From: a virus
Taxonomy: Duplodnaviria > Heunggongvirae > Uroviricota > Caudoviricetes
Reading direction: 5' to 3' (one strand)
Length of the DNA: 38,611 bases
IMG/VR virus record: IMGVR_UViG_3300023184_005353
Numbering within the stretch: the stretch's first letter is position 1; every line of letters begins with the position of its first letter. Below the pieces are notes generated by a model. It was not told where the DNA came from. It searched no databases and worked only from the letters and a program-made list of their open reading frames with translations. Positions 37,872-37,976 of the stretch are shown piece after piece. The translations under genes were made by a program, and so were the position numbers.

Positions 37872-37976
37872 ACAAGAGTGGTGGAAGAGACTGGGGTACC
37901 CCGGTCGGTAGATAGACACAAGGGTAATCATGCCCTCGCTGGTAACAGCATGTAGGTGCAAGTCCTTCCTCTTGTA
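37872..37976 (+). tRNA. Non-canonical class II tRNA-like RNA with D-loop hairpin insertion; anticodon unassignable
   Basis: Perfect ACAAGAG/CTCTTGT acceptor stem, GTGGAA...GGTAGA..GACAC D arm, GCTG-GTAA-CAGC variable arm and GTAGG-TGCAAGT-CCTTC T arm. Confidence 0.65.

What the first reader, a model, noticed from the sequence alone, without database searches (positions are those of the whole stretch)
37872..37976. tRNA-like RNA with an 18-nt hairpin inserted in the D loop and a non-canonical anticodon loop
Seen: a perfect 7-bp acceptor stem, Leu/Ser-type D arm and variable arm. The D loop holds an extra GC-rich hairpin GACTGGG-GTAC-CCCGGTC (37889-37906) and a TAGA duplication. The anticodon arm AGGG-TAATCATG-CCCT has an 8-nt loop (6 nt if T-G pairs) with no U33, and the T loop is TGCAAGT. 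Inference: preserved stems plus a perfectly paired insertion argue against simple decay. It may be a tRNA mimic (anticodon-nuclease decoy, processing handle or scaffold) or an atypical decoder.
Basis: partly seen in the sequence, partly recalled or inferred. Interest (0 to 1): 0.8.

Follow-up and report, generated by a model that had tools for sequence, protein, structure and literature searches.

The report
Five-armed tRNA-Leu mimic in lake phage
A lake-water phage carries a conserved 105-base RNA gene that descends from a leucine tRNA, has gained an extra hairpin arm in its D-loop and has a codon-reading loop of the wrong size and sequence, so it is probably a tRNA look-alike that does not decode; its job is unknown.

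Summary
ARAGORN and Rfam do not call the element a tRNA.

It is a real, constrained RNA gene. Seven distinct copies in two divergent clades of freshwater phages keep all five variable helices. Of 31 pairs, 99% stay paired and 14 changed on both sides, including 5 of the 7 pairs of the inserted D-loop hairpin. The unpaired D-loop and T-loop bases are almost invariant.

It descends from a phage tRNA-Leu. A relative carries a normal tRNA-Leu(UAA) at the same locus.

The anticodon-like arm has a loop of 5-6 nt (7-8 nt if the closing U.G opens). It lacks U33, has a pyrimidine at position 37, and differs in length between clades, so decoding is unlikely.

It sits at the end of a mosaic tRNA/ncRNA cluster. 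In sister phages the same slot holds other Leu-type tRNA look-alikes or a normal tRNA-Asp.

Contigs from RNA libraries cover and bridge it, which is a weak hint of expression.

My best reading is a non-decoding tRNA-Leu mimic matured by the tRNA-processing enzymes. The partner it acts on is unknown.

This scan earlier noted Leu-type scaffold arrays (e1-1930875) and D-loop fifth arms in tRNA-Glu (e1-3037527) on other DNA. I found no paper describing this design.

The parts
37872..37976 (+). whole 105-nt tRNA-Leu-derived, five-armed tRNA-like RNA gene
   Evidence: Model R1 scores it 127 bits. Homologs: L007 3129-3233, L082 1798-1902, L083 1746-1850, L107-L126, and L084 (partial). Covariation.
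37872..37878 (+). acceptor stem, 5' strand (pairs with 37969-37975); discriminator A at 37976
   Evidence: 7/7 pairs; pairs 1-3 are changed on both sides in the L083 clade (A-U to U-A, C-G to G-C, A-U to U-A).
37881..37883 (+). D stem 5' strand GUG (pairs with CAC 37917-37919), preceded by U8 G9
   Evidence: Invariant in all copies, so there is no covariation test. It is homologous to the D stem of phage tRNA-Leu.
37889..37906 (+). inserted fifth arm in the D-loop: 7-bp stem and GUAC loop
   Evidence: 5 of 7 pairs changed on both sides across copies and 100% stay paired. The closing G-C is kept. The loop is GUAC or AUAU. The arm is absent from real tRNA-Leu relatives.
37907..37916 (+). 3' part of the D-loop, GGUAGAUAGA (G18 G19 equivalents plus the UAGA duplication)
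   Evidence: Nearly invariant. Its invariance between the two clades is partly by construction, because the search pattern required it. Within the L083 clade, which was found through proteins, only two point changes occur.
37921..37936 (+). anticodon-like arm: stem AGGGU/GCCCU, loop AAUCAU
   Evidence: 4 pairs changed on both sides; the closing U.G is invariant. The loop is 6 nt here and 5 nt in the L083 clade.
37938..37949 (+). variable arm, 4 bp capped by the GNRA loop GUAA
   Evidence: G-C changes to A-U in the L083 clade and the loop changes from GUAA to GCAA. Phage tRNA-Leu relatives have the same kind of arm.
37952..37968 (+). T arm: stem GUAGG/CCUUC (U.U mismatch in this copy only), loop UGCAAGU
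   Evidence: L007, L082 and L083 have U-A at the mismatched pair. The first pair changes from G-C to A-U. The loop carries G at position 55 and A at position 57 in all copies.
37861..37871 (+). CTTGGTTATAT: remnant of the 3' end of a ~140-nt ncRNA that precedes the element in L007 and L082
   Evidence: Alignment with L007 and with L082.
37977..38177 (+). separate ~200-nt GC-rich structured RNA module that starts right after the discriminator
   Evidence: Absent in L007 and L084; present in L082 and L127-L135. RNA-library contigs cover 37993-38170 and 38002-38169. No Rfam match.
38180..38210 (.). A-tract, 7-bp hairpin and T-tract: a two-way terminator closing the RNA cluster, facing the holin gene at 38230-38400 (-)
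   Evidence: Read from the sequence; the fold; conserved in L007, L082 and L084.
37462..37845 (+). upstream gene: small AAA_33 / polynucleotide-kinase-like ATPase
   Evidence: Pfam AAA_33 and phrog_2071. In cultured phages its relatives lie next to RNA ligase genes. In relatives it is followed by tRNA genes.

Best explanation
The element is a functional RNA gene that descends from a phage type II tRNA-Leu and has been rebuilt into a non-decoding tRNA mimic.

It keeps what makes an RNA look like a tRNA to processing and tRNA-binding proteins:
- a 7-bp acceptor stem stacked on a 5-bp T stem;
- U8 and A14, and A15 with U48;
- the GG of the D-loop;
- U54, C56 and A58 of the T-loop;
- a GNRA-capped long variable arm.

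It has three fixed departures from a tRNA: a fifth helical arm between positions 17 and 18 of the D-loop, a changed T-loop (G55, A57), and a short anticodon-like hairpin that cannot present a normal anticodon.

I infer that it is transcribed within the phage's tRNA/ncRNA cluster and cut out by RNase P and the tRNA 3'-end enzymes. I also infer that it receives CCA, since none is encoded and the phage's real tRNA-Arg encodes none either. It would then act in trans through its tRNA-like top half, binding a protein that recognises tRNA-Leu or type II tRNAs without entering translation. Candidates are a host tRNA-cleaving defence nuclease or LeuRS.

Shown: the gene, its fold, its tRNA-Leu ancestry, its place in the tRNA cluster and its departures from a decoder.

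Inferred: the processing, the stability, action in trans and the partner.
For: - Structure under selection: 31 pairs, 99% paired, 14 with changes on both sides, 0 of 500 shuffles reach the observed score, slid controls 36-47% paired. RNAalifold agrees independently.
- Stems turned over while unpaired D-loop and T-loop bases stayed nearly fixed.
- tRNA-Leu ancestry: the element aligns with phage tRNA-Leu(UAA/UAG). Model R1's best outside matches are tRNA-Leu(UAA) genes at 30-44 bits. In L087 a real tRNA-Leu(UAA) starts 9 nt after the DUF4494 gene, where L083 has the element 11 nt after it.
- Not a decoder: the loop is AAUCAU, AUCAU or GUUAU, its length differs between clades, and there is no U33. 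ARAGORN and Rfam do not call it.
- tRNA-cluster setting: L082 has five normal tRNAs just upstream; L001-L003 and L007 have tRNAs after the same ATPase gene.
- No conserved ORF: the 85-aa minus-strand frame is broken in L082 and L007.
- RNA-library contigs hold the element. One joins it to the upstream ncRNA of the L082 type and one joins it to the downstream block.
- Context consistent with a conflict over tRNAs: a cREC_REC domain, a metallophosphatase and a kinase-like ATPase lie in the window, and relatives of the ATPase neighbour RNA ligase genes. UUA makes up 58% of Leu codons.
Against: - No partner protein is identified and no gene co-occurs strictly with the element. The ATPase has 80 fetched relatives, and only L007 among them carries the element.
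- Only two deep lineages are known, so the covariation rests on few independent events and no R-scape-type statistic is possible.
- RNA-library contigs cannot prove transcription, ends or abundance.
- The same slot holds a normal tRNA-Asp in sister phages, which fits a plain processing-handle role as well.
- The discriminator is A in one clade and G in the other. That speaks against a shared LeuRS-type recognition, if A73 is required as it is in E. coli (my own knowledge).
Confidence: 0.55

Rival explanations
1. It is a cis-acting processing handle only. The tRNA shape would exist to recruit RNase P and RNase Z so that the neighbouring RNAs (the ~140-nt ncRNA upstream, the ~200-nt RNA downstream, or flanking mRNAs in the L083 clade) get defined ends. 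This is how the tRNA-like parts of MHV68 TMERs release pre-miRNAs. The excised tRNA-like piece would have no role of its own.
For: The ~200-nt block starts right after the discriminator in four different slot fillings: the hairpin element, an 83-nt tRNA-like, a 117-nt tRNA-like and a normal tRNA-Asp. The remnant of the upstream ncRNA ends a few bases before position 1. In the L083 clade the element lies between two co-directional ORFs. For TMER processing by tRNase Z see PMC4838037.
Against: Any tRNA would serve as a handle. This does not explain why the non-canonical T-loop, the UAGA duplication, the invariant U.G, the anticodon-like stem and the fifth arm are all kept across clades whose stems turned over completely. 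In L007 and L084 nothing follows the element but the terminator. The L083 locus is the general tRNA island of that phage group.
Confidence: 0.2
2. It is charged but does not decode. Host LeuRS, which in E. coli ignores the anticodon, would aminoacylate it, and it would act as an amino-acid donor for a non-ribosomal acceptor or as a sink for LeuRS.
For: It has a Leu-type D arm and a long variable arm, and A73 in the window clade. Non-proteinogenic tRNAs and tRNA-Other are known in bacteria (PMC3399842, listed; PMC5389517).
Against: The L083 clade has G73. The hairpin sits in the part of the D-loop whose length sets Leu identity in E. coli (my own knowledge). No transferase or synthetase gene was seen in the window.
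Confidence: 0.1
3. It is an atypical decoder: a suppressor or four-base reader whose loop middle, UCA (window clade and L108 type) or UUA (L083 type), pairs with UGA or UAA.
For: Both clades have a stop-codon complement in the middle of the loop. After removal of the hairpin and one TAGA, ARAGORN at a relaxed threshold calls a tRNA with an 8-nt loop. Earlier scan notes report D-loop arms in apparently working tRNA-Glu genes (e1-3037527; not tested here).
Against: Position 33 is A or G and position 37 is U or C. The loop is 8 nt in one clade and 7 nt in the other only if the invariant U.G is open; otherwise it is 6 and 5 nt. The window reads densely under code 11, with stops TAA 33, TAG 5 and TGA 4, and no in-frame stop pattern beyond chance. 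The sister 83-nt Leu-type RNAs have a 3-5-nt loop with no such triplet.
Confidence: 0.08
4. It is a decaying tRNA-Leu pseudogene, or the cloverleaf is a chance fold.
For: The window copy has a U.U mismatch in the T stem, and standard finders miss the element.
Against: Fourteen compensated pairs, a fully turned-over but intact hairpin, and identical length (105 nt) in both clades. In the L083 clade it is the only tRNA-like gene kept at the locus, and it occurs in many lake samples.
Confidence: 0.03
5. The hairpin is an intron, and its removal restores a normal tRNA.
For: Archaeal tRNA genes can carry introns in the D arm (bioRxiv 10.64898/2026.10.13.758758, listed).
Against: The hairpin has no bulge-helix-bulge shape. 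Bacteria have no such splicing enzyme (my own knowledge). With the hairpin removed, ARAGORN still finds no tRNA at its normal threshold, and the anticodon-like loop stays abnormal.
Confidence: 0.03

Closest known systems
Bacterial and phage type II tRNA-Leu, for example the tRNA-Leu(UAA) genes of related lake phages (L087 1719-1805, L091 2920-3006)
   Same: 7/5 acceptor and T stems, U8, A14, 3-bp D stem with GGUAGA in the loop, long variable arm capped by GNRA, A73 (window clade), and the same genomic slot in a sister phage.
   Different: An 18-nt arm plus a UAGA duplication in the D-loop; T-loop UGCAAGU in place of UUCGAnU; an anticodon arm of 15-16 nt in place of 17, with no U33 and no Leu anticodon. 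Neither ARAGORN nor Rfam calls it.
Leu-type 'scaffold' tRNA look-alikes of lake phages
   Same: A tRNA-Leu-derived top half, a non-canonical or replaced anticodon arm, location in phage tRNA arrays, and the very same slot in sister phages. One member (L139 2177-2296) also has a hairpin at the same D-loop spot.
   Different: A different acceptor sequence that drifts by compensated changes; a changed T-loop where those RNAs keep the normal one; its own fixed 105-nt design. Model R1 gives them only 20-45 bits against 103-128 for true members.
Phage T4 RNAC and RNAD (species 1 and 2 stable RNAs of the T4 tRNA region)
   Same: Small non-tRNA RNAs encoded and transcribed in a phage tRNA cluster, with unknown roles (PMC3014915).
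   Different: That they have tRNA-like ends is my recollection only. The host and the phage group are different.
MHV68 TMERs (a viral tRNA-like element followed by pre-miRNA hairpins)
   Same: A non-decoding viral tRNA-like element directly followed by a structured RNA whose 5' end would be made by tRNA 3' processing (PMC4838037). In the window the ~200-nt RNA starts right after the discriminator.
   Different: TMERs are eukaryotic, Pol III-transcribed, unrelated in sequence and lack a fifth arm. The phage element also occurs without any downstream RNA (L007, L084).
Irregular tRNAs of Mukai et al. 2017 (allo-tRNAs and tRNAs with an extra 'E-loop') and B. cereus tRNA-Other
   Same: Natural tRNA-shaped RNAs with an added loop or lost identity elements, some of them not chargeable or not used in translation (PMC5389517; PMC7609411; PMC3399842).
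   Different: Their extra loop lies between the acceptor and D stems, not inside the D-loop. They have 8/4 or 9/3 stems and normal anticodon loops. They are not derived from tRNA-Leu.

Membership tests
Canonical tRNA (Rfam RF00005; ARAGORN) | Reaches the family's detection threshold | tested here: not met
   No RF00005 match even at E<=10 for the window copy or the L083 copy. ARAGORN finds nothing at 37872-37976.
Canonical tRNA (Rfam RF00005; ARAGORN) | 7-bp acceptor stem plus 5-bp T stem closing a cloverleaf | tested here: met
Canonical tRNA (Rfam RF00005; ARAGORN) | 7-nt anticodon loop with U33 and a purine at position 37 | tested here: not met
   The loop is 6 or 5 nt (8 or 7 nt if U.G opens); position 33 is A or G; position 37 is U or C.
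Canonical tRNA (Rfam RF00005; ARAGORN) | T-loop U54-U55-C56-R57-A58 and a D-loop of about 7-11 nt with GG | tested here: not met
   G at position 55; a 30-nt D-loop holding a helix. U54, C56, A58 and GG are kept, although one L083-clade variant has GA.
Bacterial type II tRNA-Leu | Long variable arm, 3-bp D stem, GGUAGA D-loop, A73 | tested here: inconclusive
   All are present in the window clade, but the L083 clade has G73.
Bacterial type II tRNA-Leu | Leu anticodon (NAG or NAA) in a normal loop | tested here: not met
Bacterial type II tRNA-Leu | Leucylation by LeuRS | not testable with these tools
   Needs an aminoacylation assay.
tmRNA | tRNA-like ends enclosing a tag reading frame | tested here: not met
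   ARAGORN and Rfam find no tmRNA in the window. The acceptor closes a 105-nt RNA with no frame.
YrlA / Y RNA (Ro60-bound tRNA mimics) | Rfam Y RNA models match, and a Ro60 (Rsr) gene is nearby | tested here: not met
   No Rfam match. No Ro60-type Pfam match among the 40 window proteins scanned.
Archaeal-type intron-bearing tRNA | A bulge-helix-bulge motif at the insertion, and a normal tRNA once it is removed | tested here: not met
   The insertion is a plain stem-loop. With the hairpin removed, ARAGORN still calls no tRNA at its normal threshold.

The most novel reading that the evidence does not exclude
These phages maintain a dedicated five-armed tRNA-Leu decoy. It is made and matured like a tRNA. 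The rebuilt elbow and the short anticodon-like hairpin would keep it out of translation. It would soak up a host factor that attacks or senses type II or Leu tRNAs, and so protect the UUA-decoding capacity on which this 30%-GC phage depends.
Probability: 0.22. Interest if true: 0.8.

Novelty: new variant of a known kind. Interest (0 to 1): 0.62.

Why it matters
Phage tRNA genes are usually read either as codon-supply genes or as replacements for tRNAs that host defences cleave. This element would be a third kind: a tRNA-derived RNA kept by selection that cannot decode in the normal way. It carries an added helical arm at the tRNA elbow, the surface used by RNase P, the ribosome and many enzymes.

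If it is a decoy or a protein-docking mimic, it points to a host factor that recognises Leu or type II tRNAs. It would also add an RNA-based countermeasure to the conflict between phages and their hosts over tRNAs.

It also shows that standard tRNA finders and Rfam miss conserved members of phage tRNA clusters. A 105-nt, well-defined fold with natural sequence variants is a convenient object for structural work and for RNase P, CCA-adding and synthetase assays.

Tried and rejected
- ARAGORN and Rfam on the native sequence gave no call.
- BLAST of the RNA region and of 8.6 kb of the window against 50,697 deposited phage records gave no match.
- No whole genome is held for this window.
- Exact and gapped pattern scans of IMG/VR found only the L007/L081 contig.
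- A looser, hairpin-centred pattern gave eight hits that are all protein-coding chance matches (DEWWKRFG... frames) and score nothing with model R1.
- Two scans of 185,579 species genomes found nothing.
- Model R1 over the 80 loci fetched with the ATPase found no copy there other than L007.
- Look-ups through four relatives of the DUF4494 protein found normal tRNA-Leu or other tRNAs, but no intermediate form with a hairpin and a normal anticodon loop.
- The 85-aa minus-strand ORF over the element is rejected because it is broken in L082 and L007.
- Stop-codon recoding of the phage has no support.
- A pairing between the anticodon-like loop and the D-loop, checked by eye, showed no consistent covariation.
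- The RNA-library contigs laid did not cover the ATPase gene.
- The sigma-70 promoter scan found nothing useful upstream. Bacteroidota promoters are not covered by that scan.
- Literature searches for D-loop hairpin insertions in bacterial or phage tRNAs found none described. The library is incomplete, so this is only weak evidence of novelty.

Full report
**What is there.** The window is a 30%-GC phage contig. It carries a holin, a ClpP-type prohead protease and GMP reductase, and its SprB-repeat, Fib_succ_major and OmpA domains point to a Bacteroidota host. The DNA is held by many lake and freshwater metagenomes. Positions 37870-38165 stand out at 44-52% GC against about 30% around them.

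- a perfect 7-bp acceptor stem, U8 G9, and a 3-bp D stem GUG/CAC;
- a 30-nt D-loop in which an 18-nt hairpin (37889-37906; six Watson-Crick pairs and one U.G; loop GUAC) precedes GGUAGAUAGA;
- a short anticodon-like arm, AGGG(U)-AAUCAU-(G)CCCU;
- a 4-bp variable arm capped by GUAA;
- a T arm with loop UGCAAGU, and discriminator A.

ARAGORN finds two other tRNAs in the window but not this one. Rfam gives no tRNA match even at E<=10. When I removed the hairpin and one TAGA in a script, ARAGORN called a tRNA with an 8-nt loop, and only at a relaxed threshold.

**Homologs and covariation.** Relatives of the upstream ATPase gene gave 80 viral loci. One of them, L007, holds the element at 97% identity with three changes. 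G-C becomes G.U in the hairpin, U becomes C in the anticodon-like loop, and U becomes A in the T stem, which repairs the window's U.U mismatch.

A gapped pattern scan of metagenome contigs gave three more copies. L082 and L084 belong to the same clade. L083 is a very different copy in a different phage.

Look-ups of L083's two flanking proteins gave 20 more loci from many lake samples. All carry the element, in three distinct sequence types.

On the seven distinct sequences, 99% of pair cells are standard pairs, against 36-47% when the 3' partners are slid. Fourteen of 31 pairs changed on both sides, and no shuffle of 500 reaches the observed covariation score. By helix, the pairs changed on both sides are:
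- 3 of 7 in the acceptor stem;
- 5 of 7 in the inserted hairpin;
- 4 of 5 in the anticodon-like stem;
- 1 of 4 in the variable arm;
- 1 of 5 in the T stem.

RNAalifold on a plain MAFFT alignment predicts the same arms, except the 3-bp D stem, which never varies.

The hairpin stem is GC-rich in the window clade and AT-rich in the L083 clade. It changes again by two compensated pairs within that clade, yet its size, its place and its closing G-C stay the same. Both clades give exactly 105 nt.

By contrast, the unpaired bases of the D-loop and T-loop are almost fixed. Their identity between the clades is partly by construction, because my pattern required them. Within the L083 clade, which was found through proteins, only three point changes occur there.

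No reading frame is conserved over the element.

The caveat is that there are only two deep lineages. The number of independent events is therefore small and no R-scape-type test is possible.

**Ancestry.** The element aligns with the type II tRNA-Leu genes of related phages: GAGUGGUGGAA, GGUAGACAC, a GNRA-capped variable arm and A73. Outside the family, the best matches of my covariance model are tRNA-Leu(UAA) genes at 30-44 bits and Leu-type look-alikes at 39-45 bits. In L087 a normal tRNA-Leu(UAA) starts 9 nt after the DUF4494 gene, and L083 has the element 11 nt after its copy of that gene. So the element is a rebuilt tRNA-Leu.

**Why it is probably not a decoder.** By homology with tRNA-Leu, positions 26 and 44 are in place and the anticodon stem has five pairs ending in an invariant U.G. 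That leaves loops of 6 nt (window clade) and 5 nt (L083 clade). If U.G opens, the loops are 8 and 7 nt.

In no reading is there a U at position 33, and position 37 is a pyrimidine. The middle of the loop reads UCA or UUA, the complements of UGA and UAA. I record this as unexplained.

The window reads densely under the standard code, and TGA ends four genes. The sister 83-nt Leu-type RNAs have a 3-5-nt loop there. I give the decoder reading 8%.

**Setting.** The element lies at the end of a mosaic cluster of RNA genes between the ATPase gene and a two-way terminator that faces the holin gene. L082 has five normal tRNAs, then a ~140-nt conserved ncRNA, then the element, then a ~200-nt GC-rich RNA block. 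The window has lost the tRNAs and the ~140-nt RNA except for its last 11 bases. L007 and L084 lack the ~200-nt block.

Phages with the identical holin and the same block fill the slot just before the block in four ways: with this element, with an 83-nt Leu-type look-alike, with a 117-nt look-alike, or with a normal tRNA-Asp. The block always starts right after the discriminator. The modules are therefore exchangeable cassettes bounded at tRNA ends. That fits maturation by tRNA-processing enzymes, and it is also the main support for the rival 'processing handle' reading.

Against that rival, a handle needs none of the conserved oddities: G55 and A57, the UAGA duplication, the invariant U.G, the fifth arm and the anticodon-like stem.

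**Expression.** Four lake metatranscriptome libraries from four studies hold contigs on this stretch.
- One spans 37861-37945 with the L082-type variants and runs on upstream into the L082-type ncRNA.
- One bridges 37941-38140, from the element into the block.
- Two end at 38169 and 38170, just before the terminator.

Contigs of RNA libraries can contain DNA and show no ends, so this is only a weak hint of co-transcription.

**Mechanism.** I commit to a non-decoding tRNA-Leu mimic that is matured like a tRNA and works through its tRNA-like top half on a tRNA-recognising protein (0.55).

The window also encodes a cyclic-phosphate-processing receiver domain, a metallophosphatase and the kinase-like ATPase. 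Relatives of the ATPase in cultured phages sit next to RNA ligase genes. UUA makes up 58% of Leu codons, and related phages carry tRNA-Leu(UAA).

This fits a phage engaged in a conflict over tRNAs, but it does not identify the partner. The rivals are a pure cis handle (0.2), a charged non-ribosomal donor (0.1), an atypical decoder (0.08), decay (0.03) and an intron (0.03).

**Comparison and novelty.** The element is not a member of the tRNA family as defined by Rfam or ARAGORN, and it fails the anticodon-loop and T-loop features. It resembles four known things:
- T4 RNAC and RNAD, in being a non-tRNA RNA of a phage tRNA cluster with unknown role (PMC3014915);
- MHV68 TMER tRNA-like parts, in being followed directly by a structured RNA (PMC4838037);
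- the irregular tRNAs of Mukai et al., which have an extra loop at another place (PMC5389517; PMC7609411);
- the Leu-type scaffold look-alikes that I saw in L085-L097, L127-L135 and L139.

This scan had already noted those Leu-type scaffolds on other DNA (e1-1930875), as well as D-loop arms in tRNA-Glu of soil bacteria (e1-3037527, e1-5257243). I did not test those notes beyond seeing the Leu-type family in my own loci.

I found no paper that describes a helical arm inside the D-loop of a bacterial or phage tRNA-like RNA. I rate it a new variant of a known kind, tRNA mimics and irregular tRNAs in phage tRNA clusters, with interest 0.62.

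Noticed in passing
window 37977-38177 (+): A ~200-nt GC-rich structured RNA block directly after the element. It is a separate module: absent in L007 and L084, present in L082 and L127-L135. It always starts right after a tRNA or tRNA-like discriminator. It contains a D-arm-like hairpin with a GGUAGA loop and a GCAAGUC loop like the element's T-loop. RNA-library contigs cover 37993-38170. No Rfam match. This is the subject of note e1-5418901.
   Followed up: partly
window 10893-10969 (+): A second odd tRNA. 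ARAGORN calls it 'tRNA-?(gg)'. It has normal acceptor, D and T arms, but its anticodon stem has two mismatches and its loop is 6 nt, UUGGUA.
   Followed up: partly
L007 2984-3126; L082 1653-1795; L001 3110-3265; L127 about 1715-1860 (-): A conserved ~140-nt ncRNA closed by a CCGAGU...ACUCGG (or ...ACUUGG) helix, lying between tRNAs and the slot of the element. No Rfam match. Only its last 11 bases remain in the window (37861-37871).
   Followed up: no
L001 2970-3106; L002 3052-3190; L127 about 1862-2001 (-): A ~135-nt tRNA-like RNA with an AGUUGrG acceptor and a normal GGUUCGAUUCC T arm but a large, unexplained middle. Neither ARAGORN nor Rfam calls it.
   Followed up: no
L085-L097, L127-L135, L139 (for example L096 2099-2205, L095 1984-2070, L086 1794-1896, L088 1913-2013, L131 about 1625-1741 (-), L139 1905-2050): A family of Leu-type tRNA look-alikes that share the acceptor AGUCAGG/CCUGACU, the D arm and a normal T arm, but carry a different insert or short hairpin in place of the anticodon arm. 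L139 2177-2296 has its own unrelated hairpin at the same D-loop spot as the window element.
   Followed up: partly
L087 2555-2976; L089 2768-3130; L140 2170-2585: Related large lake phages carry tmRNA genes at the end of their tRNA arrays, with tag peptides ending in ALAA or AVAA.
   Followed up: no
window 14404-14820 (-), 17099-17923 (-), 37462-37845 (+): A possible RNA-repair set: a cREC_REC cyclic-phosphate-processing receiver domain, a calcineurin-like phosphoesterase, and a small AAA_33 kinase-like ATPase whose relatives in cultured phages adjoin RNA ligase genes.
   Followed up: partly
window 37896-37899; L083 1772-1775: The tetraloop of the fifth arm is self-complementary in both clades (GUAC and AUAU), although the stems share no sequence. 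This could reflect kissing-loop dimerisation, a palindrome origin by template switching, or chance.
   Followed up: no
L089 2019-2120; L090 1835-1934: A ~100-nt tRNA-like gene with normal acceptor, D and T arms, but an anticodon stem that encloses a ~26-nt loop holding a further hairpin. ARAGORN calls the L089 copy tRNA-Val(cac), 95 nt.
   Followed up: no
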